In this document: piece after piece, positions 5,940-44,119 of the stretch
Layout of the letters: the number at the start of each line of letters is the position of its first letter
Position numbering within the stretch: the stretch's first letter is position 1
Source of the DNA: Octopus sinensis
Lineage: Eukaryota
Assembly (NCBI RefSeq): GCF_006345805.1
Contig: NC_043023.1
Span: 12,400,001-12,464,000, forward strand
Direction of reading: 5' to 3'
DNA: 64,000 bases
Made by a program: the position numbers and the translations under genes
The notes under the pieces: model-generated
What the model saw: the letters and a program-made list of their open reading frames with translations, nothing else
What the model was told of the DNA's origin: nothing
The model's database searches: none

Positions 5940-6600
5940 GGGTACCACTTAAGAAGAGTCGTCCTGTGCGCGTATCCGCGCTAGCTAGTCGTGACTAGTC
6001 GATCCTACAACGATTAGCTACAAAACACAAAGTAAATGATTTTTTTTACACAAAATAAATAAAACACAAAAACACAAAATAAATAATTTTAATAAATTTT
6101 ATTAAACAAAGGCGCAGGAGTGGCTGTGTGGTAAGTAGCTTCCTAACGAACTACATGGTTCCGGGTTCAGTCCCACTGCGTGGCACCTTGGGCGAGTGTC
6201 TTCTACTATAGCCTCGGGCCGACAAAATCCTTGTGAGTGGATTTGCTAGACGGAAACTGAAAGAAGCCCGTCGTATATATGTATATATGCATGTGTGTGT
6301 TTCAGTGTCTGTGTTTGTCCCCCCAACATTGCTTGACAACCGATACTGGTGTGTTTACGTCCTCGTAACTTAGCTCTTCGGCAAATGACAACCGATAGAA
6401 TAAGTACTCAGCTTACAAAAGAATAAGTCCCGGGGTCGATTTGCTCGACTAAAAGCGGTGCTCCAGCATGGCCACAGTCAAATGACTGAAACAATTAAAA
6501 GAATAAAGTAAACAAAACACAATTTAAGGATCGACTAGTCATGACTAGCTGTCGCGGGTACGCGAGTGCGCGCACCGGGACCACTATTCGCTAGTAGTGC
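5940..6600. mobile_element. TIR MITE (GGTACYACTTAAGAAGAG family) with nested SINE
   Basis: Inverted ends ...CTAGTCGTGACTAGTCGATCCT / AGGATCGACTAGTCATGACTAG.... Relatives lie at 30451-31046, 41978-42846 and 46002-47321. Confidence 0.7.
6111..6510 (+). mobile_element. tRNA-derived SINE family A (~400 bp)
   Basis: Head GGCGCAGGAGTGGCTGTGTGGTAAG with a B-box-like GGTTCAGTCC, an internal (TA)n tract and a 3' end GTCAAATGACTGAAACAA. More than 12 copies occur in the window. Confidence 0.9.
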
Positions 6601-6638
6601 CTTGTTTTATTAAATTTTAGAGGGAACAAACCAGTCAG

Positions 6639-6784
6639 TAGCGCCATCTATTGGAGAACTGAGGAATTGAATTATCACAAGGGAAATAACTTCTACAGCA
6701 CTTCAACCTCCATTCAATTAATTATCAATTAAGGTGCTTAATTACCGAATACTGAGTCGCTGTTTATAGCTGAATACGGTAAGT
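6639..6784 (+). promoter_or_regulatory. First-exon module of ZNF-3: CTCF-like motif plus splice donor
   Basis: TAGCGCCATCTATTGG at 6639-6654 and CG|GTAAGT at 6779. The matching acceptor is at 10776. Confidence 0.65.
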
Positions 6785-7812
6785 TGACAAAGATTTCCTT
6801 TAAGGCTGTAATAGAGTTGATAATACTACTAATAATAAGGTAAATAATAGAATTCTGTGAACCTCTCGATGTTACAGTAATTATTTTTCGAAGCGGGAAC
6901 CTGACAACAATTAAGAAAATATATTTGCTCGTCTTAATTAACAAATTCCGAACTGAAATGTTGATTTATTGTTTATGAAAACCTATGATCGACTGTTACA
7001 TGTGATATAAAGTAAATTGATTTATAAAATGAGAGTAATGTGGCATAATTAATTAGCAGAATGAGGGGAAACCGATTGAAAAATACTATATTAATTAACG
7101 TTGTCCCGTTGTTAATGAGGCTAAGTTGACGAAGATTTACTTTAAGGTTGTGATGGTGATAATACTACTACTAATAATAATAATGTAAATTATAGAATTC
7201 TGTGAACATCTCGATGTTACAGTAATTATTTGGAAGGCATAACAATAGGGAAACGTATTTGCTCGTCTTAAATAACAAATTCCAAACAGAAATGTTGATT
7301 TATCGATTATGAAAACCTATGATCGACTGTTTCATGTCATATAAAGGAAATTAATTGGTAAAATGAGGGTAAAGCGGCTTGATTAATTAGTAAAATGAGA
7401 GGAAACCGATTGAAGAAACCACATTAATTAACGTTGTCCCGTTGTTAATGAGGCATTGATAAAACATTAAGTTGACGAAGATTTACTTTAAGGTTATTTT
7501 GATAATGATGATGATGGTTTCACATTTTGGCCCCGGGGCAAGAAGTCTTTTATGCGAACCTGAAGTCGAATACCTGGAACCCAGTATTTCTCGAAAAGGA
7601 TGAAAGGCAAATACGACCTCGGCCCTATTTCCACTGAGACCTGGACTTCTTTTTCGGGTTGCATAAAGTAATGATGATGATGTTGATAATGATCTCTTGT
7701 ACTTGAGACACAAGGACTAAAATTTAGCGGGAGGGCGGAAATCGATTCCGTGGACCCCAGTGCTGTACTGTTGCTTATTTTGGGCACTCCTTTAGAAAAT
7801 GACGCTTAATTT

Positions 7813-8215
7813 GGCGATCTTTCGTCTCTAGTAGACCTTTCCGTCGATTTCCGTAAAAAACTTCTTTTATTTTTACATATGGGCTTGCGGGAACTTTTGA
7901 AGTAATGAGAGCGAAAGAGACTAAGAGAAAGTGATTTTATGACGAGGGAAGTTCTTTTGAAGTTACCGTGCATGGGAAGCATTGATGTACATGTGTGTGT
8001 GTGTGTATTTGATGGGGTGTGGGAGACAGACAGTATGTTGTGTAAGTGAAGTGCTTCTGTTAGTGTGTGTGAAGAGACAGAGAGAGTAATGTGTGAAAGA
8101 GAGAGATAACTGTCTTTCGCTCTCATTACTTCAAAAGTTCCCGCAAGCCCATATGTACAAAAAAATGTTTTTTACGGAAATCGACGGAAAGGTCTACTAG
8201 AGACGAAAGATCGCC
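7813..8215. mobile_element. Merlin-like MITE
   Basis: ~105-bp TIRs starting GGCGATCTTTCGTCTCTAGTAGACC, with a perfect 8-bp TSD CTTAATTT (7805-7812 / 8216-8223). GG termini plus an 8-bp TSD fit Merlin/IS1016. Confidence 0.8.
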
Positions 8216-11179: not shown

Positions 11180-12983
<1,804 letters not shown>

Positions 12984-13675
12984 TAACTGTATCAATATCA
13001 AAATTTATTACAACATGAGAACAATTATGAATATTTTGTCTGCTAAAAGACTAGATTTATTCCCCTTCAAGTTTGACCTCATCAACTTTAATTTCATCAT
13101 TAGCAATTTGATGTTAATGAACCCCAACTTCAATATCATTTATATATCTAAATACATCAACACAGAGATGACTTTGGTTTCTGAAGATGATTGTGCTGGA
13201 TTTTTGAGGAATTTGTTATGAGAGAATAAAGGAATGGGAATAAGGAATAAAAGTTTTAAGTGACATTGATTTTGTCTTTGTTGTGTTTTCATCATCAACA
13301 TCATCATCATACTTTAATGTCCATTTTTATGCAGGCTTAGGTGGTCAAGTGTGACAGGAGCCGTCAAGCCAGAGTGCTGCTCCAGGCTCCAGTCAGATTT
13401 GGCTTGGTTTCTTTGGCCTTATGCCCCTAAGCTTCATAGTATGTTTTATAAATATGCCTGTCCCAGTATCATAACAGCATGAAACTAATAGTAGCTCTTT
13501 CAGTTGTGTATTTAATTTGATATATTAGGTTGAGTAAAAAGTAAGCAACGTTTTGAACCATGAAGAGTTTGTACCAGGTTTTTGCAGAGTTTTGAATTTT
13601 TTTAAACGTCTTTTTGAAATTGTCTGATAATACAAACATATATAGGCGCAGGAGTGGCTGTGTGGTAAGTAGCTT

Positions 13676-15684
13676 CTTACCAGACAGACGTGTTGTTTTT
13701 TGCTCCGGCAAATGTCACGTGTTAACGTGAAATATTGAACATTTTATGGCAACAGGTAGGACATTTTGGATATTTTTGGAAGCACAGTGAGGTTTATTGC
13801 TTGCCGTTGATACTTTTTTGGCATTAATGTTAATTAGTGTTAACACTTTTTCTGCGCGTAATAAGCTTCACTGTGCTTCCGATGTATTTGTTCTGCCTGT
13901 TGGCATATTTATTGTCTCACCTTTTAGTGAGAATTGTGTATTTTGAGAGGCATAGCCCCTCCTCAAAAATTAATTTGTTCGCTTGGATTTACCACGGAGA
14001 ACCAATTGTGCTTGGATTTACCACGGAGAACCAAGTGTGCTGCAACTAGGAGTACCCTGTTTCGTGAGGATTACCAGTTGCAGAACTGTGTTGCCATTAT
14101 TTGAACTGTCTTCCTTCGTCCTTTTCTCTGTTCTGTCTTTCCATTCTGTCATTGTGTTTTTTTTTCTTATTAACTTTTTTTCAAAATCATGGCAACAAAA
14201 GAAACCACTGCTTTGGAATGGGAGGTTGTCCCACCCAAGCAGTGGATTGAAAGTCTTGAGAAGAGGACGGTGGTCCTACGAACCTATTCTAGGTCGCGTG
14301 GAGCTATCGCCCTCTTCGACAGGAGCACCATAGAGAAAGAGTTGGGCGACCACCTACCAACGATAAAGTTTATTTCTCGGGGGAATAAATTTGCAACGGT
14401 GTGGTTGCTGTTTAATACCCCTGAGGAAGCTAGCGAGCCACTGGGGGGAGAGGAAATTTTGTTCCTCCCCTCGTATTGTGGCAGAAAAGTAAAAAGAGCC
14501 TGGGTTTGTGGGCTGCCCCCGGGCACGGAGGCGGAATGGATCAAGAAGACTATCCGGCGAGGCCTGGGGGATGGTGGACCCAGGCTACTACGTGTGAAAA
14601 TGGCTCCCGCGGTCGCCTGGGAGGGGTCAAAGGCAACTTTGACCCTGTGGACACCGGTGGCCGTGGGAGAAATGAAATTCACGGACTTCCTGAGAATGGC
14701 TGGGCACAGGTACCCGGTGATACTCGAGGGTCGCCCCCCCCAAGTGTCACCTGTGCCTGAAGCCCGGACATATCAGGAGGAATTGTCTTGGGGGCCTTGG
14801 TGGTGCCCCGGAGCAGAAAGGGGAAAAGGCGCCCGCCGCCCCCTCATTGGAGGGGGAGACGGTGGAAGTCGTGGAGGAGGTTGCCTCCACGAAAAGAAAG
14901 AGACAGGCGAGCAACAATGGTTGCCCGCCAAAGAACGCTCAGGTGGCGGAGGGGGATAGCGATCCCCCGTGTCTGGTGACGGAGTCCCCTGGGTCAGCAG
15001 TCTCCCCGAAAAGAAGGAGGAGAAAAAGGAAAGGTCGGACGACTGACGTTTCTGTGTCGCCGACGGATTCGCGGGTGGGATGTGTGCCACCCGCGGGCAA
15101 GGCTCCGCCAGTGGGAAGTGTGCCACTGACGGAGCAGTGTGAGGCCCCTTCCTGTGAAGAGGAGATGCTTCTCCTTTACCACAAGGGAGAGGAGGTGGAA
15201 AGGTTTCTGAATGGCTTGGGTGACCGAGAACGCAAGGGCACGGTCGGCTCAAGGAGTCCGTTATGGCCTCCGCAGGTAGCTGTGGAAAAAGTAACGGAAG
15301 ATATTTTGTCAAGGGTCGCAGAGACCTTTGAGAGGAAACAGTTTACTTTTCTCTTTGCAGGCCCCGACTTGTCGTTGCAGAGTTGTCTGCAGGCGGCAAG
15401 ACAATTTGCTTCGGGGACCTAACGGGGAGAATTGTTGAACATTCTTGTAACATGTTGAAGAGGAGGTTTATTGCCTCCTCTAAAATATGTAATTTGAATC
15501 ATTGTGAACATTTTGTGCATTAAATGTAATTATTGAACATTGTTTTAGAGAAGCGAAAGTCGGCGGGTGCTTTTGACTTCTCCCATCACCATCTTCATCC
15601 ACCGCCACCATCATCCATTAATGTCCTTGTCCAACACGTAGCTACTACTCTGTGTGCTGCCCTACTGGCAAATTATATAAAATA
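13676..15684 (+). mobile_element. Non-autonomous Tx1/L1-like non-LTR retroelement (ORF1 only)
   Basis: TSD AAGTAGCTT (13667-75 / 15685-93), a GC-rich ORF1 with a CCHC knuckle, an A-rich 3' end and no RT ORF. Confidence 0.8.
14189..15422 (+). pseudogene. Gag-like ORF1 (~410 aa) with CCHC zinc knuckle, one frameshift
   Basis: Removing one C from the C8 run at 14734-14741 joins ORF 14189 to ORF 14847..15422 through GRPPK-CHLCLKPGHIRRNC (CX2CX4HX4C, 14745-14786). Confidence 0.8.
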
Positions 15685-16248
15685 AAGTAGCTTGTTTACC
15701 AACCACATGGTTCCAGGTTCAGTCCCACTGCATGGCACCTTGGGCAAGTGTCTTCTACTATAGCCTCGGGCCGACCAATGCCTTGTGAGTGGATTTGGTA
15801 GACGGAAACTGAAAGAAGCCTCTCGTATATATGTATATATATATATGTTTGTGTGTCTGTGTTTGTCCCCCTAGCATTGCTTGACAACTGATGCTGGTAT
15901 GTTTATGTCCCCCTTACTTAGCTGTTCGGCAAAAGAGACAGATAGAATAAGTAGTGGGCTTACAAAACAATAAGTCCCAGGGTCGAGTTGCCCGATTAAA
16001 GGCGGTGCTCCAGCATGGCCGCAGTCAAATGACTGAAACAAGTAAGAGTAATAGACTTGTCCAAATGCACCAATAAATTAACATTGATAATTTTTTTCAC
16101 TGTTACAATAATCTGAAATGGAAGTGTGAAAGAGCAATATTGGAGCGGGGACAGTTTTAATTTAATTTATATATATATATATATATATATATTACGGAGA
16201 TGTACTTGCATAGCATGTGATCTGATCTGAGATTGTGTGTTGGAACGA

Positions 16249-16483
16249 AAACAATTGCAGTGTGGAAGGTGTTTATAAGCCATTTAAGAAACACACAAAA
16301 ACCATTAGATTCACGACTAACTGTCATTTATTCAGATGCAGTACAGAATTTTGTCAGTGAACAGGTCACGGTCGGAAAGCGACGGAAATATTTTGACAAA
16401 TTAGATTTAAATATTGAAGTGGAACTAACGGTTTTTGTGTGTTTCTTAAATGGCTTATAAGCACCTTCCACGCTGCAATTGTT
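16249..16483. repeat. ~65-bp inverted repeat (possible Penelope-like terminal structure)
   Basis: AACAATTGCAGTGTGGAAGGTGTTTATAAGCC... pairs with ...GGCTTATAAGCACCTTCCACGCTGCAATTGTT around a ~100-nt spacer. Confidence 0.7.
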
Positions 16484-16492
16484 GTGTGTGTG

Positions 16493-16557
<65 letters not shown>

Positions 16558-16605
16558 ACATACGTAAATATGTGATATATATATATATGTCTGTACGTAT
16601 ATATG

Positions 16606-16658
<53 letters not shown>

Positions 16659-16840
16659 GTATTCATAAATATATATGTGTGTGTGTATATATATATACGT
16701 AGTGCACCTGAGCACTGTACACAATGTTTATTATTATTATTATTATACATACACACGGATGCGTATACACATATCATTGTACATGTATATATATATGACA
16801 TACACACATGTATGTATACATATACACGAACATATATGTA
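16484..16840. repeat. (TA)n/(TG)n microsatellite region
   Basis: Seen directly. It produces the YIYIYI artefact ORFs. Confidence 0.95.
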
Positions 16841-17140
16841 AGTCAGATACACCCGCTTAATTTTACAATAGCTAGAACTTTATTCCTTCCTCCATAATTT
16901 TGGTGAAAATTTGAAAAAAAAACGCAGAAAGAAAATCATTGAATCGAATCCCGCCAGTAATTAGTGCCATCTCGGGGAGAAGCGGGGAAATAGAGTCGTG
17001 TAAAGGGGAATAACTTTAACAGCAGGGGAAAATTTAAATAGTGCTGGTGATTTAACATCGGGCACTGACCCGTAAGAATACGGTAAGTTGACAACGATCT
17101 GTTTTAAAGCTGTAATGATAAAAAGATAGATAAATAATAA

Positions 17141-17491
17141 GGTAGTTTCCTATTTGATGCCCGTAAAATCATAGCGATCCAACAAGTTTATTTTAATAAA
17201 ACATTTCATTAATTATAAGTGGAACACACTACGAACAATGAATGAAAGGTGAGGGAAAATGTTTGAGTTATTTTGAATAGAGTTTCGCCCTGGACATATT
17301 TGAGAATTGTTCAACAATCCACGGCGATGACACAAAGCAATACAAGTAGCTGGATCTGAGAAAGATCGAACCAGTATCGTAATTGTAAGGCTTTAATTGA
17401 TTAAAACGGGAAACAAGACATGCTAATCGAGTTGAAATGAAATTTAGACTAAAACAAATTTGATTTTACGGACATCAAATAGGAAATGACC
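17141..17491. mobile_element. Merlin-like MITE
   Basis: TIRs GGTAGTTTCCTATTTGATGCCCGTAAAATCA / TGATTTTACGGACATCAAATAGGAAATGACC with an 8-bp TSD AATAATAA. Confidence 0.8.
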
Positions 17492-17557
17492 AATAATAAT
17501 GTTGAATGGCAAAATATATTTCCTCTTCTTTGATAATTACTTTCAAATTGAAAAGTT

Positions 17558-18120
17558 GGAATCTTTTCGGTTTGAACGGCAGATTTTTAAAATAGTTTCC
17601 ACTAAACTAAACACTTTTTAAACTTCGTATACTGGTAGAATGTGTTTATAAGACATCTTTTTCTCTTGGCTTTATTGAGAAAATTCAATAGTTTGTAAGA
17701 TATTTGGGTCTTTTCGGTTTGAACGGCAGTTTTTTAAAATAGTTTCCACGTAACTTAACACTTTTAAACTTCGGATACTGGTAGAATATGTTTATAAAAC
17801 ATCTTTTTCTCTTGGCTTTAATTGAGAAAATTCTGTAGTTTGTAAGATATTTGTTGTTGGTTTTTTTTCAATTTCTGCAATTTCAACCAATAAATGACGT
17901 CTATTGAGGTAAAAAAACATTCTGTGCCGTATCAATATGTCCCTCGTTTAAGATACAGATAGGGTTTATTTACATTTGTGAAGAAAAAAAGATACCCTTC
18001 CCACCAGCCGTAACCCTGAAACAGATTGAAATGTAATAGATCGATACTAGGGTCATAATAATGGGTGATAATTTCATATGACACCGCTAGAAAAAACTGC
18101 CGGTCAAACAGAAAAGATCC
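17558..18120 (+). mobile_element. GGATCTTTTCGG-family TIR MITE with duplicated left arm
   Basis: Family TIR consensus GGATCTTTTCGGTTTGAACGGCAGTTTTT / AAAAACTGCCGTTCAAACCGAAAAGATCC. Confidence 0.85.
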
Positions 18121-18547
18121 GGAAGGACAATGAGTGGGGAAGAGAGGAAATGACGTTCAGAAAGGACCGGAACTACGACGGCATGACGTCACGTCAGGTA
18201 GCCACATGTTGAGGACGTCTTCTGTATTACGGTATCTTTGACGGGGTCAAAATATTGCGTTGGAAACGGTCGTAGAGAATATAAGAATATATGAGTAGAC
18301 TTTATTAAAATAATCTGGTGAGAATTTGAAAGAACTTGAAGGTGAAATTGTTGATAAAATGGGACAAAAAAAAAAAAAAACGGAACGAATTCAACCTGCC
18401 AGTAGAGCCATCTACTGGAGAATAGAAGTACAACCATACCAAGGGAAGTAACTTCTAAAACACTCCAAACCACGTGGTCCCTGTAAATTATTAATTAAGG
18501 TGCTTAATTACCAATCACTGGCTTGTTTATATCCGAATACGGTAAGT
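18121..18547 (+). promoter_or_regulatory. Putative promoter and first exon of ZNF-4
   Basis: Locally CpG-richer stretch with TGACGTCA (CRE-like) and CCGGAA (ETS-like), CTCF-like TAGAGCCATCTACTGG at 18403-18418, donor at 18542 and acceptor at 21136. A more degenerate module lies at 16960-17088. Confidence 0.6.
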
Positions 18548-18964
18548 TTATAAAGATTTAATTAAAGACTGTATTAATACTATTAATTAATAATTTAAAT
18601 AATAAAATTATGCGAGCCTCTCCAAACGAAAACATTTTATTTTTTAGTATAAAATATTTCAAACTGGATGAATCTTCCTAATTTTTTGCATACTTCATTT
18701 ATTTTGTATATATTTTCCATCTTAATAACTTCTTAAAAAATTAGGTGTCATTTTCGTGCAGAGGTGTGCTTCTAGGTACTACTAGCGAACAGTGGTCCCA
18801 GTGTGCGCACTTTTTAACCCTAAACATAACCCTAACCCGGTACTATTTAAGAAGAGTGGTCCCTGTGCCCGCTCTTACTCGCTAGCTAGTAGTGGCTAGT
18901 GCATTCTAAATGTCTACTTAGCGCGAGTGCCACATAGGTTTTTTTTTAACAAAATAAATAATTC

Positions 18965-19802
18965 GGATCTTTTCGGTTTGAACGGCAGTTTTTAAAATAG
19001 TTTCCACGTAACTAAACACTTTTAAACTTCGTATACTGGTAGAATGTGTTTATAAAACATCTTTTTCTCTTGGCTTTAATGAGAAAATTCTATGGTCTGT
19101 AAGATATTTGGGATCCTTTCGATTTGAACGACAGCTTTTTAAAATAATTTCCACGTAACTGAACACTTTTAAACTTCGTATACTGGTAGAATGTGTTTAT
19201 AAAACATCTTTTTCTCTTGTCTTTAATTGAGAAAATTCTATGGTTTGTAAGATATTTGGGATCCTTTCGGTTTGAACGATAATCGTAACGCCCTATATTA
19301 ACCAACATCGGTTAGAATGTGTTTATAAAACATCTTTTTCTCTTGTCTTTAATTGAGAAAATTCTATGGTTTGTAAGATATTTGGGATCTTTTCGGTTTG
19401 AACGACTGTTTTTTTAAATAATTTCCACGTAACTAAACACTTTTAAACTTCGTATACTGGTAGAATGTGTTTATAAAACATCTTTTTCTCTTGTCTTTAA
19501 TTGAGAAAATTCTATGGTTTGTAAGATATTTGTTGTTTTTTTTTCTTCAATTTCTGCAATGTCAACCGATCAATTACGTCTATTGATGTAAAAAAAACAA
19601 ACATTCCGTGCCGTATGAATATGTTCCTCGTTTAAGAAACATTGGGTTTATTTACATTTCTGAAGAAAAAAAGGATACCCTTCCCACACCCCTAACCCTA
19701 AAACAGATTGAAATGCAATAGATCGATACTAGGGTCATAATTATGGGTGACAATTTCATATGACACTGCTAGAAAAAACTATAGTTCAAACCGAAAAGAT
19801 CC
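18965..19802 (+). mobile_element. GGATCTTTTCGG-family MITE with tandem left arms
   Basis: Same TIRs. Flanks AATAATTC / AATAAGTG could be a decayed 8-bp TSD. Confidence 0.85.
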
Positions 19803-21538
19803 AATAAGTGTCTTCTACTATAGCCCTGAGCTAACTAAACCCTTTTATTTCACATCCACGTAGGGGACGAATCTAAACACAAAAATGCTCTGAAAGCAAC
19901 GGGGTTGGGAGAGGCTTTCGGAAAATTCACAAGATCCGAAGTTTTTCCCTCGTAATTTTTAGGAAGATGAGTTTTTTTTGTGAATGATATTTTATATACA
20001 TACGTTTCGAACGGTATAGGTCACGATTATAAAGAAATTTGTGGGAGAAATCTTTTGCGATGGGGTCAGGAGGGGACTTCGGAAAATCCGATGTTTTTCC
20101 CTCGTAACTTTGAGGAAAATATAATCCTTTTGAAATAACAAATTCAATTTTTCCTCACGAACTTCTATGCTAAACATCCTTTTGTGAAGGTTCATTCGTT
20201 GGTCCCCCTTTCGTTATAGCACATGCTGTCAACTATAAACACATGAAATATTATCACTAATAATGCTCTCTCGATGCACATACATATTTCTTCTCTGTAT
20301 TTGTGTGGAATGTAGATAACAAAATCAATGTGGCAGTTTAAACTTGAGAAAAGCCTTGCATATTTATAATGTCCAAGTTATATAGATGTATGTATGCATT
20401 TCTGTGCATGTGTGTCTATGCGGCTAGGGTTCCTTCTTACCTGCTTCATTTGTGTATGTAAATTTCTAAGAAGAAAACGAGATCGATGTCAAATAAGCCG
20501 TATTACTGATGATATTTCATTAATTTAGTGCTGACAACACGTGCTCTCGTGCTCACTGAAACTAACAAAAGAATCTTGACGAGTCTGAGACTGAAAAACG
20601 ATTAAATGCCGCTTAACAAAACTATAGAAGAACGAGATGCTGTTGAGCATTTTGTCCGATAAGCAAAGGTTTCTTCCTCTAAATAATACACGGTTGATCA
20701 GAATCCATGTCTCCCTTGTTCGTTAAATTTATTTAATATATTATTATTCATTAATACACTTATTAAGAAATAAAATAGTAAATTTAAACAATAAACGAAG
20801 CATGCTAGGAAAGATGACTAATAATTGAGTCATGAATTCTTTCCCTCTCTGTAGTATTATATGAACCCTTCGAAGTTACAGTCATCACATAGAAGGGAAA
20901 ACATAGAAACATTGAGAAAATATGATTCCTCGTCTTAAATATATCAAACATTGATTTTTTTTAACGGTATGAGGAAAGGAATTTAGGGTGTAACACATTT
21001 ATGTTGTTATGCCATTCTTTCAATGAATTCTGACCCCTAAAAACATTTAATAGATGACAATGTTAAATTTTGCATCATTGAATTAGTGTATCATTTAACT
21101 ATTCTCTTTATCTTGATGTTTCTTTTCCTATTTCAGAATATCACCTTATGTTGACTCACAAACTTCTTCATTCAGATGTGCCTTTCATATTTTGACGTCG
21201 TTTCATCAACTAAAGCAAGATGACATAATTTATCAGCAGCATTCATCAATAAATCAAAATTTATATGAATACAATCTAAGAATACAATATTTTTTCTTGT
21301 CTTCACAGTTTGGAATGTAGACGAAGTGATTGCCTTACATGTTAATTAAGGTTGGATTACTTCACAAACGAATTGACAATTTCCACCTGCTCATTTAGAT
21401 ATTAATTAAGATCACAGAAGAAAGAAGCACAGCTTCAAATTCTTTTCTGGAAATAGTTGCAGAACTGAAATCAAAGATGTTTATAGAGATGAAGGAAACA
21501 TTATTATTGTGATATGTATAATAAATTATTCTGTCATA

Positions 21539-22504
21539 ATGAATAATTCAATTAAACCAAAAGACCCAGATACAAGAGAGAAACAATATTTCTGTGATAT
21601 CTGTGGTAAATCATTCGCTTATAATAGTCAGTTGACTAGTCACAGACATATCCATACTGGAGAAAAGCCATATCATTGTGAAATCTGTGGTAAATCATTC
21701 TCTCAAAGTTCGAAGGTGACTAGACACAAACGTACACATACAGGAGAAAGGCCTTATCATTGTGATATCTGTGATAAATCATTTTCTGACAGCAGTACCT
21801 TGACTAAACACAAATATACACACATGGAAGAAAAGCCATTTCAATGTGATATCTGTGGTAAATCATTCTCTCAAATGAGTAAATTGACTCATCACAAATA
21901 TACACATACAGGAGAAAAACCATATCATTGTGATATCTGTGGTAAATCATTCTCTCAAAGGTTTGACTTGGGTCAACACAAATATACACATACAGGAGAA
22001 AAGCCATATCATTGTGATATCTGTGGTAAATCATTCTCTCAAAGGATTCACTTGAGCCAACACAAATATACACATACAGGAGAAAAGCCTTATCATTGTA
22101 ATATCTGTGGTAAATCATTCTCTCGAAGGAGCACCTTGGCTGAACACAAATATACACATATGGGAGAAAAGCCATTTCAATGTGATATCTGTGGTAAATC
22201 ATTCTCTCAAAGAGGTACCTTGACTAAACACAAACGCACACATACGGGAGAAAAGCCATATCATTGTGATATCTGTGGTAAATCATTCTCTCAAAGAGGT
22301 ACCTTGACTAAACACAAACGCACACATACGGGAGAAAAGCCTTATCATTGTAATATCTGTGATAAATCATTTTCGCGTAGGAGTATTTTGACTACACACA
22401 AACGTACACATACAGGAAAAAAGCTATATAATTGTGATATCTGTGGTAAATCATTCTCTCAAAGGAGTAGCTTGACTCGGCATGAATATACACATACAGG
22501 ATAA
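21539..22504 (+). CDS. C2H2 zinc-finger protein ZNF-4, 11 fingers
   Basis: Intact ORF from ATG 21539. It ends at a GGA-TAA stop within a linker, with decayed fingers downstream and AATAAA near 23114/23127. Confidence 0.95.
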
Positions 22505-23669
22505 AAGCCATACCATTGTGATATCTGTGATGAATCATTTTCTCAAAATTTTCATTTAACGAATTTCAGATACATTCATACGAGGGAAAAACCATATCGC
22601 TGTGATATCTGTGATAAATCATTCTCTGCAAATTGTGATTTAACTAGTAACAAACATATTCATGCTGCAGAGAAGCCGTTATCATTGTGACACCTGAGGT
22701 AAATCATTCTCTTGCAAATGTACATTTTCATACCACACAAAATCTACATCATGGTCAAATCTATTGTAAATCCTTCTCTCATAGACTTAACTGTAAATGA
22801 ATACATTCCTACAGGAGAGACGCCATGTCAGAGTGACATCTGTGCTAAACCATTCTCTTGAAAAAAGCTACATCCATCCACCTGGGTATTCACAACAATT
22901 GTAACTGTACCAATGCCAGGATTTATTAAAACATTACGACAATGAAGTCTGTTTTGTCAGCTGTCATTCAGGGTTTTTCCCATCATCAATTTGAATACCG
23001 TCAGTGTGAACGTCAAACCTGTCATAATCTGTAAAAATATTGACTCTGAGTTAACTTGATTGCTAAAAATGCCTGTGTTTGGATTTTGAGGAATTTGCTA
23101 GAAAAGAATAATGAATAAAAAATCAGAATAAAAGTTAGACCATTTTGTTTGTTTTGTTACTCAATATCTGGACACTGTCTCCTCCATACCTTAAATCTCT
23201 CAACTGGCACAATGGCACACCCGTTCAATACTAGCTGGCCACCTCCCTGTTGTGGGATTTTTTTGTCACCTGGGGATTTGGTGACCCTTTTGATGCTGAT
23301 GTTACATGTCCTTACACACTGTTAATGTACAGGTATGGAATCCCCAACTCTATGGGGGTGGTCTTGTTATTCAAATGCCTTGTTTCTGTTTGCTCCTGAA
23401 ATTTATGTGTAATCTTTTATTCTTTGATGTGTTTCAATCATTTGACTGAGGCCATGCTGGAGCACCTTCTTCAAGGGTGTTAGTGGAAGAAATCGACCTC
23501 AAGACTTAGTCTTTGTAAGTCTAGTACTGATTTTATTGGTGACTTTTACTAATCCGTAGTTACAGTGAGATAATCACACCAGTGCCAATGGTTAAGCCCG
23601 TGGCAGGTGAAAAAAAAAGACACAGACACATACCCAAATACATATAGATATACATTCTGGTGTCTTCTA

Positions 23670-24163
23670 CCTGAGTCGTAGCCAGCCCACTTATGCATAC
23701 CTTTCCTTCTTGTGACGACCTGTTGAGGCAAGTGAAAATCAAAATCGAAATCGATCAACATCAATGGAAATTGTAGCTGTGATACCAGTGCCAATGGCAC
23801 GTAAGAGAACCATCCGAACGTGGCCGTTGCCAGCGACGCCTCGACTGGCCTCCGTGCCGGTGGCACGTAAAATGCACCATCCGATTGTGGCCATTGCCAG
23901 CCTCGTCTAGCCCCCGTGCCGGTGGTATGTAAAAGGCAGCATCTGACAAAGGCCGGTTGCTAGCCTCGTCTGGTACCTGTGCAGGTGGCATGTAAAAGGC
24001 ACCCACTACACTCACGGAGTGGTTGGCATTAGGAAGGGCATCCAGCCGTAGAAACGCTGCCAGATCAGACTGGGCCCAGCACAGCCTTCTGGTTTCCAAG
24101 ACCCCAGTTGAACTGTCCAACCCATGCTAGCATGGAAAGCGGATGCAAAACAATGATGATGAT
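23670..24163 (+). mobile_element. SINE family C (Meta-domain-like, (ATG)n tail)
   Basis: GGTTGGCATTAGGAAGGGCATCCAGC core, ~60-bp internal repeats and an (ATG)n tail. Other copies lie at 25005-25410, 26868-27186, 35710-36040, 47823-48250 and 48733-49460. Confidence 0.75.
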
Positions 24164-24194
24164 TTATATATATATATATATGTAGTAGCCTAAG

Positions 24195-24415
24195 GTTGAG
24201 TTGAGCTGGCAAAAACGTCAGCACACCGGGGAAATGTATTTCATCTGGTGTTACGTTCTGAGTTCAAATTCCACCGAGGTCGACTTTGCCTTACATCCTA
24301 TTGGAGTCGATAAATAAAGTACCAGTTACTCACTGGGGTTGGTGTAGTCGACTTAATCCATGTCCCTGTTTGTGCTCTCTGTGTTTACCTCTTTGTGGGC
24401 GATAAAGAAATAAGA
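24195..24415 (+). mobile_element. SINE family B (Nin/Deu-domain-like)
   Basis: Family core GAGTTCAAATTCC...GGTCGACTTTGCCTTTCATCCTTTCGGGGTCGATAAA. Other copies lie at 24588-24795(-), 52440-53840(-) and 60765-61315(+). Confidence 0.75.
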
Positions 24416-24571
24416 AATTGACCCCAAGACAGGGACATAAACACACCAATACCAGTTGTTAAGCGATGGCTGAGGGAAAAACAGATACACACATTTATAC
24501 ACATACCCACGTATATACATGCATACAACACACATATATAGTAGCCTAAGTACCCGGAATTTCAAGGAATG

Positions 24572-25437
24572 TTAACCCTTTTGATACCTATTTCTTTACT
24601 AAACACAGAGGGGACAAACAAGGACAGACACACGAATTAAGTCGATTATATCGACACCAGTGCGTAACTGGTACTTATTTAATCGACCCCGAAAGGATGA
24701 AAGGCAAAGTCGACCTCGGCGGAATTTGAACTCAGAACGTAACGGCTACGCATTTTACCCGGCGTGCTAACATTTCTGCCAGCTCACCGCCTTTTGACAC
24801 CAACCCAGCTGGCAGGCACCCCCTCAGACTCTGTAGTACAAATAAATGTCTTGTTTTTATGAGTTCTGATTTAAAATTTTTCATCAAACTTTAGTCACAA
24901 CTTATGTTCCAACACCAGGTTAATGATAACCACCAAGTTATTTTATGAAGCTGTTTGTTATATTTAAAATTAATTGAAAGAAACACAGAGCCTCTCAACA
25001 GAATTCATCATCGTTTAACGTCTGCTTTCCATGCTAGCATGGGTTGGACGAATGACTGAGGGCTGGCGAACCAAATGGCTGCACCAGGCTTCAGTCTTGA
25101 TCTGGCAGAGTTTCTACAGCTGGATGCCCTTCCTAATGCCAACCACTCTGAGAATGTAGTGGGTGCTTTTTACATTATATATCATCATCATCATCATTTA
25201 ACGTTTGCTTTCCATGCTAGCATGGGTTGGCTGATTTGACTGAGGACTGGCGAACCAACTGGCTGCACCAGGCTTCAGTCTTGATCTGGCAGAGTTTCTA
25301 CAGCTGGATGCCCTTCCTAACGCCAACCACTCCGAGAGTGTAGTGGGTGCTTTTACATGCAACTGGCACGGGGCCAGTCAGGCGGTACTGGCAACGATCT
25401 CGCTTGAATCTTCTAATTATGGTAACAAAATTGTTAA
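24572..25437 (+). mobile_element. piggyBac-like TTAA MITE monomer broken by nested SINEs
   Basis: Starts TTAACCCTTTTGATACC, body homologous to 61913-62131, ends ATGGTAACAAAATTGTTAA. Confidence 0.6.
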
Positions 25438-27289
25438 AGGAAATGAACGTATTTATTCCGATAAAAAATACATTTTCAGAACAATTCTATCAGATGACAT
25501 GTGTATAAACAATATCAGTAAAACAAATCTTGGAAGCAATCACAGTTTAATTCTTTAGAACTTCTAAATATACAAGGTTTTCAGCAACCACTACATTCTT
25601 GAAGTGTTTGGTGTTAGGAAGGGCATCCAGCTTCCAAGAACTGATTGCAGCCTGGTTCATCTTTGCGAGTTGCCAGTCCTCAGTCAAACCGTCTAACCCA
25701 TGGAAAGCAGGTGTTAAATGATGATACTATATATGATATATTGTTATGACATTGAAAGTTTAGGGTGAAATTTGCCAACCATTCGCTGTCTCTCTCTCTC
25801 ACTCACTCGACACAAAGAAGACACGTGATTTCCTCGCCAGAAATTGCAAAGGGAAACTGCTTTAGCGTTTCAAATTTATTCTGCAATCTGGGATTATTAT
25901 ACCTTATATATATTATATTCAGTGACTCTAACAGTTATTAAAAGATAACTTTGTTTTAATAATTATACGTTTAGTTGTTTCATACACAAACTAACCGTGT
26001 TTTTCCTTTTAGATTAATTGTTAATCCTTATTTATCTCTCCACTGACTTCGGTACCACTCTAACTTCTCTCAATTTTCAATTTAATGTAATCCACACTCT
26101 CTTGAAAACGGGAAAGACAAAGTGAGAGAGAGTGAGTGACGACGTTCATAAAATATAAAATGTAAAATGTTTTAGTTTTTCTTAAACACGAGATATAGTG
26201 TTCAAATTCAGGATGGTTTTGAAAGACCCTATATTTTATAATCATAGTATATATACTTTCTCACACAACAATTACAATATATTTATTTTAAATCGTTCAT
26301 CTTTCTCCCCATCTCTCTCTCACACACATTACTTTGGGTGCGAAAGAGTTTTGTTTTTATTTTACGCCCAGTAAAAAAGTGTTTTGTTGAGAGTCAATAT
26401 TACTTAGTTTGACTTGAAATAAAGGCCGGGTTATACTGCTAGTGTAAAATAAAGTTTATTATAAACAACACAAACACTTTGTAATTTAATAGATTTCAAT
26501 GTGATACCTGTTCAATAGAAATTATTTTTATTTAATAAAAATTTAATTAAATCCAATCAGGAGTAAGTGAAATTCTGCTGAATAAAAACTAAATTGAAAA
26601 CATTTATCCCTGGCTGTCTCGGCAATACTCAAAGGTTTGAGGTGAGAATTTTACATAAGTAGGACACTTTCTTTTAACAAATATCATCTCTGTCAATTAC
26701 ACGGGTGCACAAAGTACCTGGGTGTTTACAGTGCTTGTGCATAGTCAAGTGATACCTTTTAGAAAATGATATCAGAATATGGCTTTTCTCTTGTATGTGT
26801 ATGTTTGTGTTGAGTCAAGTCCTATAAGAGAATGATTTACTACATATTACAAAGATATGGATTTACTATGTGCCGGTGGCACGTAAAAAACACCATTCGA
26901 GTGTGATCGTTACCAGCCTCCCCTTACTGGCACCTGCGCCGGTGGCATGTGTAAAAGATTTGAGCGAGGTCGTTGCCAGAGCCGCCTGACTGGCCCCATG
27001 CCAGTTGCACATAAAGGCACCCACTACACTCCCAGAGTGGTTGGCGTTAGGAAGGGCATCCAGCTGTAGAATCTCTGCCAGATCAAGATTGAAGCCTGGT
27101 GCAGCCACTTGGTTCGCCAGCCCTCAGTAATTCGTGCAACCCATGCTAGCATGGAAAGCAGACGTTAAATGATGATGATGATGATGTGTATGTTTGTGTT
27201 GAGTCAAGTCCTATAAGAGAATGATTTAACACAGATATTAGGATATTTCTTTTCTGCTGTATATGTATATATATACATGTATATATAAA

Positions 27290-27740
27290 TACAGATTGGT
27301 GAATGCAGTTGTCTTCCCAATAGCAACATATGGATGCGAGACCTGGACACTAAAGAAAGCTGACCAGAAGAGAAATAATGCATTCGAGCTTTGGTGTTGG
27401 AGAAGACTTTTGCGGATTCCATGGACAGCGAGGCTCACCAATGGAGAAGTTCTTAAGCAGATCAGGCCGAAAATGTCGATAGAAGCTGGGATCACCAAGC
27501 ATAGATTGGCATATTTCGGTCATATTATGCGGAGATGATCCCTGGAGAAGAACATCATGCTCTGAATGGTCAGTAGCAAGAGAGGTAGAGGCCGACCACG
27601 AACCCGCTGGCTTGACACCATCAAGAGTGATACCGGAAAGGACATAGCCAATCTGAAAGAAGCGGCCCAGGATAGAACTCACTGGAAAACACTGATTCAT
27701 CGAGTAACCGAGAGTCGACTTCGACTGAGCGGATAGTGTG
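27290..27740 (+). mobile_element. 5'-truncated RTE-clade (BovB-like) LINE 3' end
   Basis: Translates VFPIATYGCETWTLKKADQKRNNAFELWCWRRLLRIPWTAR...YFGHIMRR*SLEKNIML*...RGRPRTRWLD...ESRLRLSG*, with two internal stops. It sits among the decayed 3' fingers of ZNF-5. Confidence 0.9.
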
Positions 27741-27791
27741 AGAGTATATGTATGTATGTGTTGAATCAAGTTGCACCCATAAGAGAATGAT

Positions 27792-28580
27792 TTACCACAT
27801 GTTACAAAGATACGGCTTTACTTTTGCATGTGTATACTCGTGTTTAGTCAAGTTACACCTTTTAGAGAAGGACCTACCACAGATATCACAATCATATGGC
27901 TTTTCTTCTGTATGAGTACGTTTATGTTGAGCCAAGGGACTCCTACACGAAAATGATTTGCCACAGATATCACAACGAAACGGCTCTTCTCCTGTATGTG
28001 TACGTTTGTGTTCAGTCAAGGTACTCCTTCCAGAGAATGATTTACCACAGATACGTTTATGATTAGTCAAACAACGATGTTCAGAAAAGGATTTACCACA
28101 GATGTCACAATAAGGCTTCTCTCCTGTATGAACACGTTTGTGATGAGTTAAAATGCTATTTTGAGAGAATGATTTACCACAGATATCACAACGATATGGC
28201 TTTACTCCTGTATGTGTACGTTTGTGTTCAGTCAGAATAATCCTACGCGAGAAGGATTTACTACAGATATCACAATGATACGACTTTTCTCCTGTATGTG
28301 TATATTTGTGACGAGTCAAGTGGCTCTTTTGAGAGAATGATCTACCACAGATTTCACAATGATATGGCTTTTCTCCTGTATGTGTACGTTTGTGTTGAGT
28401 TAAGTTGCTACTTAAAGAATATGATTTATCACATATATCACAGTGATATGGTTTTTCTCCCGTATGGATACGTCTGTGACTAGTCAACTGACTATTATAG
28501 TTGAATGATGTACCACAAATATCACAGAAATATTGTTTCTCTCTTGTATCATCGTTTTTTGCTTCAGTTAATTTATTCAT
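27792..28580 (-). CDS. C2H2 zinc-finger protein ZNF-5, 7 intact fingers plus one fused pair
   Basis: ATG 28580 ([13 protein letters not shown]). An in-frame deletion fuses two fingers ([12 protein letters not shown]). Acceptor at 28986, candidate donor at 30133. Confidence 0.9.
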
Positions 28581-30559: not shown

Positions 30560-30955
30560 TGGAGTGGCTGTGTGGTAAGTAGCTTCCTTACCAACCACAT
30601 GGTTCCGGGTTCAGTCCCACTGCGTGGCACCTTACGCAAGTGTCTTCTGCTATAGCCTCGGGTCGACAAGAGCCTTGTGAGTGGATTTGGTAGACGGAAA
30701 CCGAAAGAAGCCCGTCGTATATATGTATATATGCATGTGTGTGTGTTTCAGTGTCTGTGTTAGGCCCCCCAACATTGCTTGACAACCGATACTGGTGTGT
30801 TTACGTCCTCGTAACCTAGCTGTTCGGCAAAAGACACCGATAGAATAAGTACTCAGCTTACAAAAGAATAAGTCCCGGGGTCGATTTGATCGACTAAAAG
30901 CGGTGCTCCAGCATGGCCACAGTCAAATGACTGAAACAATTAAAAGAGTAAAGTA
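30560..30955 (+). mobile_element. SINE family A (duplicate of 6111-6510)
   Basis: Same consensus and same host MITE. Confidence 0.9.
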
Positions 30956-31083
30956 AATAAAACACAAAGTAAGGATCGACTAGTCATGACTAGCTGTCGC
31001 GGGTACGCGAGTGCGCGCACCGGGACCACTATTCGCTAGTAGTGCTTTACTTTATTAAATTTTAGTGGAAACCAACCAGTCAG

Positions 31084-31229
31084 TAGCGCCATCTATTGGA
31101 GAACTGAGGAATTGAATTATCACAAGGGAAATAACTTCTACAGCACTTCAACCTCCATTCAATTAATTATCAATTAAGGTGCTTAATTACCGAATACTGA
31201 GTCGCTGTTTATTTGTGAATACGGTAAGT
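31084..31229 (+). promoter_or_regulatory. First-exon module of ZNF-6: CTCF-like motif plus donor
   Basis: TAGCGCCATCTATTGG at 31084-31099, donor at 31224 and acceptor at 33186. Confidence 0.65.
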
Positions 31230-33591
31230 TGACAAAGATTTACTTTAAGGCTGTAATAGTGTTGATAATACTACTAATAATAAGGTAAATAATAGAATTC
31301 TGTGAACCTCTCGATGTTACAGTAATTATTTTTCGAAGCGGGAACCTGACAACAATTAAGAAAATATATTTGCTCATCTTAATTAACAAATTCCAAACTG
31401 AAATGTTGATTTATTGTTTATGAAAACCTATGATCGACTGTTACATGGGATATAAAGGAAATTAGTTGGTAAAATGAGAGTAATGTGACATAATTAATTA
31501 GCAGAATGAGGGGAAACCGATTGAAGAATGCCATATTAATTAACGTTGTCCCGTTGTTAATGAGGCTAAGTTGACGAAGATTTACTTTAAGGTTGTGATG
31601 GTGATAATACTACTACTAATAATAATAATGTAAATAATAGAATTCTGTGAACCTCTCGATGTTACGGTAATTATTTGGAAGGCATAACAATAGGGAAATG
31701 TATTTGCTCGTCTTAAATAACAAATTCCAAACAGAAATGTTGATTTATCGATTATGAAAACCTATGATCGACTGTTTCATGTCATATAAAGGAATTTAAT
31801 TCGTAAAATGAGGGTAAAGCGGCTTAATTAATTAGTAAAATGAGAGGAAACCGATTGAAGAAACCACATTAATTAACGTTGTCCCGTTGTTAATGAGGCA
31901 TTGATAAAGCATTAAGATTTACTTTAATGTTATTTTGATAATGATGATGATGGTTTCACATTTTGGCCCCGGGGCCAGAAGTCTTTTATGCGAACCTGAA
32001 GTCGAATACCTGGAACCCAGTATTTCTCGAAAAGGATGAAAGGCAAATACGACCTCGGCCCTATTTCCACTGAGACCTGGACTTCTTTTTCGGTTTGCAT
32101 AAAGTAATGATGATGATGTTGATAATGATCACTTGTACTTGAGACACAAGGACTAAAATTTAGCGGGAGGGCGGAAATCGATTCCGAGGACCCCAGTGCT
32201 GTACTGTTACTTATTTTAGGCACTCCTTTAGAAAATGACGCTTAATTTGGCGATCTTTCGTCTCTAGCAGACCTTTCCGTCGATTTCCGTAAAAAACTTC
32301 TTTTATTTTTACATAGGGGCTTGCGGGAACTTTTGAAGTAGTGAGAGCGAAAGAGACTAAGAGAAAGCGATTTTATGACGAGGGAAGTTCTTTTGAAGTT
32401 ACCGTGCATGGGAAGCATTGATGTAATGTGTGAAAGAGAGAGATAACTGTCTTTCGCTCTCATTACTTCAAAAGTTCCCGCAAGCCTATATGTAAAAAAA
32501 AATGTTTTTTACGGAAATCGACGGAAAGGTCTACTAGAGATTACAAACCTTGCATACGTCTTAAACATATGTACTGTATTGTGTTATAATTATTTGTGTC
32601 GTATATCAACACATCATAGAATGGACGAAGGTAAAGCGAGTGTACACCACCTAAACCTAATGCTAACCCTACAACTAACCCTAACCTTAAGCTAAAACTA
32701 ATCTAACCCTAAAACTAAACCTAAGCCTAATGCTCACGAGTTTGCACAGTAAAAAAATCTCATGAAAAACAGTAAAGAATTTGTAAACAAATATTGTCGG
32801 TCAGGTAAAAGAAATTGGGCGATCCTTCGGTATAGGTACCGTACGTACCGGAAGTGGCTTTGTTTACATTTCTGAAGATAACAGAAACCCTTTTCTTGCA
32901 CTCCTAACCCCCATATATAGAAAAAATCACTTTGTTGAAATGTATCCGGTACTTCCGGTACCAATACTGAAGTCGCGCCAAAAATTGTGGAGATGCAATG
33001 GCCCAGCAGTCAGGGCAGCGGACTCGCGGTCGGAGGAATGCGGTTTCGATTCCCAGACAAGGCGTTGAATTCCGGCCCCTAAAAACATTTAATGGATGAC
33101 AGTGTTCATGTTGTAAAATTTGCAACATTGAATTAGTGTATCATTTAACTATTCTCTTTATCTTGATGTTTCTTTTCCTATTTCAGAATATCACCTTATG
33201 TTGACCCACAAGAAACTTCTTCATTCAGATGTGCCTTTCATATTTTGACGTCGTTTCATCAACTAAAGCAAGATGACATAATTTATCAGCAGCATTCATC
33301 AATACATCAAAATTTATATGAATACAATCTAAGAATACAATATTTTTTCTTGTCTTCACTGTTTGGAATGTAGAGGAAGTGATTGCCTTACAGGTTAATT
33401 AAGGTTGGATACCTTTACAAACGAGTTGACAATTTCCACCTGCTGATTTAGATATTAAGTAAGATCACAGAAGAAAGAAACACAGCTTCAAATTCTTTTC
33501 TGGAAATAGTTGCAGAACTGAAATCAAAGATGTTTATAGAGATAAAGGAAACATTATTATTGTGATATGTATAATAAATTATTCTGTCATA

Positions 33592-34209
33592 ATGAATAAT
33601 TCAATTAAACCAAAAGACCCAGATACAAGAGAGAAGCAACATTCCTGTGAAGTCTGTGGTAAATCATTCAGACGTGTCCATACTGGAGAAAAACCATACC
33701 ACTGTGATATATGTGTTAAATCATTTATAGAAAATAGCACTTTAACAGAAGACAAACAAACGCAAACAGGAAAAAAGCCATATGATTGTGATATCTGTGG
33801 TAAATCATTCTCACTAAGGAATACCTTAAGTGAACACAAGCATACGCATACAGGAGAAGAGCCATACCATTGTGATATCTGTGGTAAATCATTCTCTTAT
33901 AAGAGGAATTTGTCTCATCACAAACGTACACACACAGGAGAAAAGCCATATCATTGTGAAATCTGTGGTAAATCATTCTCTCGAAGGACTACTTTGACTG
34001 AACATAAACGTACACATACAGGGGAAGAGCCATATCGTTGTGAAATCTGTGGCAAATCATTTTCGTGTAGGAGTAACTTGATTCAACACAAACGTATACA
34101 TACAGGGGAAAAGCCATACTGTTGTGATATCTGTGGTAGATCATTCGCATGTAGCAATAACTTGACTAAACACGAGTATACACATGCAACAAAAAAAGTC
34201 ATATCATAG
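33592..34209 (+). CDS. C2H2 zinc-finger protein ZNF-6, 5 intact and 2 degenerate fingers
   Basis: ATG 33592. Finger 1 has an in-frame deletion and finger 2 lacks both His residues. The tail ...LTKHEYTHA resembles ZNF-5. Confidence 0.85.
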   Translation: MNNSIKPKDPDTREKQHSCEVCGKSFRRVHTGEKPYHCDICVKSFIENSTLTEDKQTQTGKKPYDCDICGKSFSLRNTLSEHKHTHTGEEPYHCDICGKSFSYKRNLSHHKRTHTGEKPYHCEICGKSFSRRTTLTEHKRTHTGEEPYRCEICGKSFSCRSNLIQHKRIHTGEKPYCCDICGRSFACSNNLTKHEYTHATKKVIS

Positions 34210-44024: not shown

Positions 44025-44119
44025 AATTATTTTTATGCGTTTGTGAACATTTAAAGTCATTAAATATTATTTTACAGAATAATGGAATTAAAATCTCTTT
44101 GATTAAAACCCTTTCTAAC

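What the first reader, a model, noticed from the sequence alone, without database searches (positions are those of the whole stretch)
21539..28580. Combinatorial head/tail swapping between inverted ZNF genes (shufflon-like pattern)
Seen: two N-termini (A = [14 protein letters not shown] = [13 protein letters not shown]) and two tails (X = GGA-TAA plus fossil fingers and ~1 kb shared 3' region, Y = ...GEEP.RC..SCRS...LTKHEYTHA) occur in all four combinations: ZNF-2 B-X, ZNF-4 A-X, ZNF-5 B-Y, ZNF-6 A-Y. ZNF-2 and ZNF-5 are homologous from upstream to finger 4 and then diverge, while 2440-3430 is the reverse complement of 22500-23510. Inference: crossover between the facing arrays of ZNF-4(+) and ZNF-5(-) would invert the spacer and exchange tails, giving new DNA-binding specificities with no gene loss.
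Basis: partly seen in the sequence, partly recalled or inferred. Interest (0 to 1): 0.75.

Follow-up and report, generated by a model that had tools for sequence, protein, structure and literature searches.

The report
Patchwork zinc-finger genes from ectopic recombination
In a cluster of recently copied zinc-finger genes, likely from an octopus, gene starts, finger blocks and gene ends occur in mixed combinations, likely because ordinary germline recombination between look-alike copies splices them into new in-frame DNA-binding proteins, not because a switchable shufflon flips the DNA between the two facing genes.

Summary
The four head/tail labels are in the sequence and recombination is real, but the window shows only 4 of at least 27 related genes, which carry 3 head types and 7 or more tail types. 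The 'Y' tails of ZNF-5 and ZNF-6 are old, separate lineages (82.6%; 100/100 split). None of 13 ZNF-4 finger units is closest to ZNF-2, -5 or -6. The ~5-kb tail-spacer-tail cassette between ZNF-4 and ZNF-5 exists in 7 copies. Its X end carries the same upstream flank in 6 of 7, including an older copy on another chromosome; none is flipped as an inversion predicts. Two joints map to the base: ZNF-3 switches donor inside a 24-nt identical tract at the end of a 15-kb, ~99% direct duplication, and ZNF-5 joins a third donor's finger to tail Y at a 4-nt microhomology that contigs from two other studies bridge. Best reading: unequal crossover, template switching and gene conversion in finger arrays, as described for mouse KRAB-ZNF clusters. 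No recombinase or fixed site was found: not a shufflon. Exchange between facing genes does occur (C15 pair), so occasional inversions are not excluded.

The parts
2440..3430 (-). Tail X of ZNF-2 (fossil fingers plus 3' region), short-flank subtype without the ZNF-4 spacer
   Evidence: 95.8% to 22500-23510; likeness ends at 23525-equivalent
3425..3970 (-). ZNF-2: flank beta, head B, premature TAA at codon 62; donor switch near 3580-3610 from a C27:12387693-like head to an X tail
   Evidence: units f1-f4 differ by 3, 2, 2, 4 nt from 12387693, then 9 and 14
4987..7997 (.). Back-to-back upstream module (beta|gamma) between ZNF-2 and ZNF-3, duplicated at 29486-32432
   Evidence: 93.75% over 3025 nt
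11180..12742 (+). ZNF-3, 520 aa in-frame hybrid: gamma flank, head A, fingers 1-5 of the subfamily, then fingers and tail W of distant paralog C27:12351978
11654..11677 (+). ZNF-3 crossover tract, 24 nt identical in both donors (codes CDICGKSF)
   Evidence: diagnostic sites switch cleanly across it
12891..27827 (+). About 15-kb direct segmental duplicate of C27:12352765-12365899; flanks about 99%, ZNF-4 head region only 91-97%
19870..20950 (+). Flank alpha, upstream of ZNF-4; the same flank precedes the X-side gene in 6 of 7 cassette copies, including C15
21137..21538 (+). Predicted 5' untranslated part of the coding exon after an AG at 21135-21136, shared by all subfamily genes; splicing not shown
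21539..22504 (+). ZNF-4, 321 aa, 11 C2H2 fingers, head A, tail X
   Evidence: nearest finger relatives
22505..27830 (.). Cassette K: tail X, repeat-rich spacer, reverse tail Y1; 7 copies among the stretches fetched (6 on C27, 1 on C15)
27350..27737 (+). Insertion in ZNF-5's tail (LINE-like; label recalled, no Pfam hit), shared by four C27 cassette copies, no hit in the C15 or C2 stretches
27792..28580 (-). ZNF-5, 262 aa: flank beta, head B, fingers 1-3 B-type, fingers 5-6 from a third (U-type) donor, last fingers from Y1
28050..28053 (-). 4-nt microhomology joint (in frame, 33 nt short of register) between the U-type finger and the Y1 finger of ZNF-5
   Evidence: bridged by contigs 27987-28111 (X15) and 27995-28111 (X17)
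31068..31465 (+). Conserved upstream element P of ZNF-6 (likely promoter and first non-coding exon); relatives lie upstream of most cluster genes
33592..34209 (+). ZNF-6, 205 aa: gamma flank, head A with C-like damaged first finger, tail Y2

Best explanation
These genes are patchworks of shared starts, finger blocks and ends, likely made in the germline by ectopic recombination (unequal crossover, microhomology template switches and gene conversion) between the many look-alike copies of a young zinc-finger cluster. Shown: the mosaic, two base-level joints, direct and inverted segmental duplicates, and an unflipped spacer. Inferred history: an older tandem pair, beta-B-X followed by gamma/alpha-C-Y (kept on C2, partly on C15), would give alpha-A-X and beta-B-Y as Lepore/anti-Lepore-type hybrids in separate events. 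Duplications then copied the facing X-spacer-Y cassette at least six times and conversion patched gene bodies. Because finger units are 84 nt and in frame, such joints often leave an open protein with a new finger order; many products then decay.
For: 27 genes: head A with X 9, Y1 1, Y2 1, W 1, U 2; head B with X 4, Y1 2, Y2 1, V 2, other 2; head C with Y1 2 (two tails assigned). ZNF-3 switches donor in a 24-nt identical tract at the end of a ~99% 15-kb direct duplicate. ZNF-5's joint is a 4-nt microhomology; two more joints show 3- and 2-nt microhomology. Upstream elements of the X-side genes of K2 and K4 group with the C15 X-side gene, 100/100, apart from the C-Y genes' elements. C15:50647632-50660421 is collinear with the C2 tandem pair (5440 non-repeat nt, 90.1%). 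ZNF-2, ZNF-1 and C27:12395429 form a co-oriented beta-B-X, alpha-A-X, alpha-A-X run, the shape unequal crossover predicts. C15 facing pair shows UTR conversion.
Against: The order of events is not fixed: in the cassette tree K1 (ZNF-4/5) sits in an open fork with K4/K5 and K2/K3/K6, so A-X before B-Y is not proven. ZNF-4 lacks its own alpha-type P element, so its flank ancestry rests on alpha, 'w' and the W gene. K4 has alpha on its Y side and K5 gamma on its X side, as an ancient inversion product would; K5's gamma is better matched to the beta|gamma module. Beta-flank site patterns are unresolved (11, 11, 7). No long read or second genome was available. Enrichment of breakpoints in arrays was not tested.
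Confidence: 0.76

Rival explanations
1. One germline inversion between facing finger arrays (in this pair or an ancestral copy of the cassette) swapped the tails and made A-X and B-Y together; later exchanges in the shared 5' region restored or changed the flanks.
For: C15 has B-X facing Y-C, the window has A-X facing Y-B around the same spacer. Facing genes on C15 have converted each other's UTR. K5 (gamma-A-X) and K4's Y side (alpha) fit an inversion product. An inversion between two mouse KZFP clusters is reported (PMC12575710, passages).
Against: Alpha and its P element stay on the X side as on C15; W-family gene and 'w' lie upstream of X in K1, K3, K4, and the W gene on C15; 0 of 7 copies has beta on the X side; ZNF-5 has a third donor at its joint; the model needs at least two extra flank exchanges.
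Confidence: 0.13
2. The mosaic is partly an assembly product: reads from different paralogs or haplotypes were joined inside finger repeats.
For: A 6.7-kb inverted pair differs at only 13 places, 5 of them single-base indels; no record spanned an array; 0 of 6 window proteins looked up are in the protein collection.
Against: Cassette copies differ by 1.6-5.4% and carry shared and private insertions; B-Y occurs in two diverged copies, A-X in nine genes; contigs from two other studies bridge the ZNF-5 joint with about 55-60 nt on each side.
Confidence: 0.07
3. A shufflon-like programmed system: an enzyme flips the spacer at set sites, reversibly and perhaps in somatic cells, so cells express alternative zinc-finger proteins.
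For: Facing geometry with in-frame homologous arrays allows in-frame products; inverted duplicates are common here.
Against: No recombinase family among 20 window frames scanned; PF00589 matches 6 places, none on C27; joints lie at different places of the finger unit, in the UTR and outside genes; no flipped cassette among 7; ZNF-4/5 arms are not homogenised (UTR 12 of 444 differences; finger bins about 73-84% among non-sister genes).
Confidence: 0.02

Closest known systems
Young mouse KRAB-zinc-finger clusters (Kauzlaric 2017, PMC5363842, passages and section 7 read; Bruno 2025, PMC12575710, passages)
   Same: Expansion by segmental duplication and non-allelic recombination; duplication, deletion and reuse of finger blocks among paralogs, also on opposite strands; an inversion between two clusters in one strain.
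   Different: No KRAB or other effector domain here; coding part is one exon with an 18-aa head; the mapped joints lie inside finger arrays or at short microhomologies, while the mouse passages read stress ERV/LINE-mediated joints.
Lepore/anti-Lepore hybrid genes from unequal crossover between tandem paralogs (recalled, no call)
   Same: Head of one paralog fused in frame to the tail of its co-oriented neighbour; reciprocal types both exist.
   Different: Dozens of donors, repeated rounds, crossover register can slip by whole 84-nt fingers.
IncI shufflon (Rci, 19-bp inverted repeats, pilV; PMC5430464, passages)
   Same: Alternative C-termini in inverted orientation next to an N-terminus.
   Different: No site-specific recombinase, no fixed short site, each gene has its own start, no mixed orientations seen.
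Cephalopod C2H2 expansions (PMC12513265, passages; PMC10547256, passages)
   Same: Clustered, lineage-expanded poly-C2H2 genes; octopus origin of this genome is inferred, not tested here.
   Different: PMC12513265's main text has 0 occurrences of recombination, gene conversion, inversion or chimer-; supplements were not seen.

Membership tests
Shufflon (site-specific multiple inversion system) | Dedicated tyrosine recombinase at the locus | tested here: not met
   0 recombinase families in 20 window frames; PF00589 hits on C4, C9, C10, C12, C15 (38 Mb), none on C27; 8 of 8 candidates scored
Shufflon (site-specific multiple inversion system) | Recombination at one short conserved inverted site | tested here: not met
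   joints at a 24-nt CDICGKSF tract, at TATC, ATT, CA and CATATG microhomologies
Shufflon (site-specific multiple inversion system) | One constant 5' part with promoterless alternative 3' cassettes | tested here: not met
   each gene has its own ATG and 5' region
Shufflon (site-specific multiple inversion system) | Mixed orientations within a clone or individual | not testable with these tools
   only short contigs were served; longest listed piece 355 nt
Reciprocal inversion by recombination between facing paralogs | Spacer flipped relative to both outer flanks compared with an older copy | tested here: not met
   alpha, its P element and the W gene stay on the X side as on C15
Reciprocal inversion by recombination between facing paralogs | The two hybrids arose in one event | tested here: inconclusive
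   K4 has A-X with A-Y, but its place relative to K1 is an open fork
Hybrid genes from non-allelic recombination in a duplicated cluster | Donor switch inside homologous sequence at a duplication end | tested here: met
   ZNF-3, 11654-11677
Hybrid genes from non-allelic recombination in a duplicated cluster | 5' and 3' segments give incongruent relationships | tested here: met
   head x tail table, tail and P trees, PHI-like p=0.0002
Hybrid genes from non-allelic recombination in a duplicated cluster | Joints confirmed by spanning reads | tested here: inconclusive
   ZNF-5-type joint bridged by contigs of 2 of 4 runs laid, copy not identifiable; others not bridged in listed pieces
Poly-C2H2 (Kruppel-type) zinc-finger gene | Tandem CxxC..HxxxH fingers with TGEKP linkers | tested here: met
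   PF00096 E=3.7e-63 (ZNF-4), 2.7e-43 (ZNF-5), 6.4e-29 (ZNF-6)
KRAB zinc-finger gene | N-terminal KRAB domain | tested here: not met
   no KRAB among families listed for ZNF-4, -5, -6; no family for the head frames; upstream exons not mapped

The most novel reading that the evidence does not exclude
The facing, in-frame finger arrays (and the 99.8% inverted arms 40-65 kb to the left) still recombine in living animals, so the spacer exists in both orientations among individuals or even among neurons, switching the C-terminal fingers of two transcription factors: a homology-driven animal counterpart of a shufflon. Not excluded because no long read could be examined and facing genes on C15 have exchanged DNA.
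Probability: 0.05. Interest if true: 0.8.

Novelty: new member of a known kind. Interest (0 to 1): 0.3.

Why it matters
It gives base-level examples of how a cephalopod-type zinc-finger cluster likely makes new DNA-binding proteins: duplication joints inside finger arrays yield in-frame hybrids (ZNF-3, ZNF-5). That parallels mouse KRAB-ZNF clusters in a family without KRAB. Contact residues change about three times faster than the rest of the finger (pN/pS 0.9 vs 0.31; 1.42 vs 0.40), which fits relaxed or diversifying selection but does not prove adaptation. It also warns that orthology and gene counts in such clusters are unreliable. The process itself is known.

Tried and rejected
Laying DNA contigs of 4 runs and guessed-RNA contigs of 4 runs: pieces too short to phase heads with tails or to show orientation; depth not used as copy number; expression of ZNF-4 or ZNF-5 not shown; no run on record as RNA was listed. 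Protein search with ZNF-5 gave only generic zinc fingers, at most 54% identity among the 120 listed; exact look-up found 0 of 6, so no second species could be compared. A possible inversion between facing beta-B genes ZNF-2 and C27:12387693 was tested by site patterns and stayed unresolved (the first bin, 34 sites in 103 columns, was set aside as a likely misaligned block). UTR-only PHI test not significant. Paper searches for array-internal hybrid zinc-finger genes returned nothing; two searches gave the mouse papers; this does not show absence from print. Rejected: treating Y of ZNF-5 and ZNF-6 as one tail; ZNF-4 as ZNF-6 head plus ZNF-2 tail.
Full report
Setting. The window is G000:C27:12400001-12464000 of a 2.72-Gb genome. 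It holds seven poly-C2H2 genes, ZNF-1 to -7. Octopus origin is inferred from recall of genome size and gene style and from earlier AI notes; my protein search did not test it. A head search gave 25 copies at 86% or more plus one partial (40 of 312 candidates scored, so a lower bound); a local search added one. I fetched 60 ten-kb stretches, 16 of them as a repeat control.

Observation. Heads A and B and tail X are as described: rc(2440-3430) is 95.8% to 22500-23510. ZNF-2 and ZNF-5 part at finger 2-3, not 4 (6, 2, 11, 17, 16 differences per 84-nt unit; median between subfamily fingers 19). The two 'Y' tails are 82.6% alike and sit in separate 100/100 clades, ZNF-5's with genes on C2 and C15. 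ZNF-4's X is one of 11 C27 rows in a mostly open fork and is closer to five other copies than to ZNF-2. None of 13 ZNF-4 units has its nearest match in ZNF-2, -5 or -6. So the 2x2 is a sample from a larger table. Among 27 genes, head A goes with X 9, Y1 1, Y2 1, W 1, U 2; head B with X 4, Y1 2, Y2 1, V 2, other 2; head C with Y1 2 (C27:12368827 and 12387693 assigned where the automatic call was misled). Recombination is supported by a PHI-like test (p=0.0002 with the head, p=0.29 for the UTR alone).

Older state. C2 carries beta-B-X followed in tandem by gamma/alpha-C-Y. C15 carries alpha-B-X facing Y-C-gamma, followed by a headless X tail; this right part is collinear with the C2 pair (5440 non-repeat nt, 90.1%). 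Head C is nearer to A than to B in this set.

Test of the inversion. The X-spacer-Y cassette occurs seven times: K1 (window), K2, K3, K6 (partial) at 12.36-12.39 Mb, K4 and K5 at 11.40-11.43 Mb, and C15. An inversion between the facing arrays would move Y next to the left flank. Instead alpha is on the X side in 6 of 7, gamma in one, beta in none. Because alpha also precedes the C2 C-Y gene, I used the farther conserved element P: those of the K2 and K4 X-side genes group with the C15 X-side gene at 100/100, apart from the C-Y genes (19 rows; beta-type elements were not included). ZNF-4 lacks this element, but a W-family gene or tail lies upstream of X in K1, K3, K4 and C15, and segment 18100-18999 recurs upstream of K4 at 89%. 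The spacer has thus not been flipped, net, since the C15/C27 split. Against this: K4 has alpha on its Y side and K5 gamma on its X side, as an old inversion product would, and the cassette tree leaves K1 in an open fork. I leave 13% for that path.

Joints. ZNF-3 follows C27:11408729 up to 11653 and distant paralog C27:12351978 from 11678, with a 24-nt tract identical in both between; the frame is kept. It marks the left end of a direct duplicate, window 12891-27827 = C27:12352765-12365899, about 99% in flanks but 91-97% over the ZNF-4 head and tail, which points to later conversion. ZNF-5 joins a finger like C27:11421310 finger 7 to the Y1 finger at TATC (28050-28053), 33 nt short of register; the same joint is in C27:12387693. 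An in-register crossover followed by a small deletion would look the same. Contigs from runs X15 and X17 (two studies) bridge it, though they cannot name the copy. ZNF-2 matches C27:12387693 through finger 4, stop codon included, then switches to an X donor. Two joints outside the window have 3- and 2-nt microhomology, one of them intergenic. On C15 the facing genes differ at 5 of 446 UTR bases but 15 of 54 head bases, and each is 21-22 from its C2 counterpart: conversion between facing genes. ZNF-4 and ZNF-5 differ at 12 of 444.

Mechanism. Shown: mosaic, joints, duplicates in both orientations, unflipped spacer. Inferred: unequal crossover or deletion between co-oriented B-X and C-Y genes gives beta-B-Y and alpha-A-X (Lepore-type, term recalled); the run ZNF-2, ZNF-1, C27:12395429 has the expected duplication shape; later duplications and conversion spread and patched them. 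Function of the proteins is inferred from family knowledge (sequence-specific DNA binding; transposon targeting is proposed for octopus ZNFs in PMC10547256, passages) and is untested. Contact positions show pN/pS 0.9-1.42 against 0.31-0.40 elsewhere on spanning-tree edges among 205 unique fingers; this is suggestive only.

Comparison. Mouse KZFP clusters show segmental duplication, non-allelic recombination, finger-block reuse and an inter-cluster inversion (PMC5363842, passages and section 7; PMC12575710, passages). Shufflons need Rci and 19-bp inverted repeats (PMC5430464, passages); neither kind of feature was found. PMC12513265 on cephalopod C2H2 genes has no mention of recombination or chimeras in its main text; no supplements were read and they may bear on this. 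Searches found no paper on array-internal hybrids, which does not show absence. Earlier AI notes on other windows of this genome reach a similar reading; they are not independent evidence.

Verdict. Real, moderately interesting example of a known process; the specific ZNF-4/ZNF-5 inversion is unlikely and the shufflon analogy fails. Interest 0.3.

Noticed in passing
L002-L005 (G000:C27:12357301-12363996 and 12376992-12383688): Inverted arms of 6.7 kb differing at only 13 places around a 13-kb core with two ZNF genes: a very recent inverted duplication, a conversion-maintained palindrome, or an assembly duplicate.
   Followed up: partly
L019-L020 (G000:C27:11256962-11266640): About 10-kb satellite of an 84-nt zinc-finger unit; the units read carry a TAA.
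   Followed up: partly
L012 and L016 (G000:C27:11392212-, 11432097-): Two ORFs contain a second head in frame (..WHKHSH-MNNSI..), joined at CATATG: head-to-tail gene fusions by microhomology.
   Followed up: partly
L015 (G000:C27:11423830+): 14 tandem copies of one finger (SCRSNLA) behind an early stop.
   Followed up: no
window 31068-31465, 30244-30433, 6631-7018: Conserved ~400-nt element upstream of most cluster genes, with GCGCCATCT and a GTAAGT donor-like site; likely promoter and first exon.
   Followed up: partly
L024-L025 (G000:C15:50636392+ and 50651100-): Facing genes with homogenised 5' regions but distinct heads: gene conversion between inverted neighbours.
   Followed up: yes
window 43973-44491: Mos1-type transposase HTH fragment (PF17906, E=6e-24).
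   Followed up: no
window 46080-47227 and 55309-57039: Two related tandem arrays of about 146-bp period, 91-98% alike.
   Followed up: no
window 13630-16050: GC-rich insertion absent from the 99% duplicate, with open frames (14189-14959 and neighbours) that have no Pfam match.
   Followed up: no
L030-L032 (G000:C27:12151304-12161267 vs C10898:28001-38000): Unplaced contig 98.8% identical over 10 kb to C27, likely an alternative haplotype.
   Followed up: no
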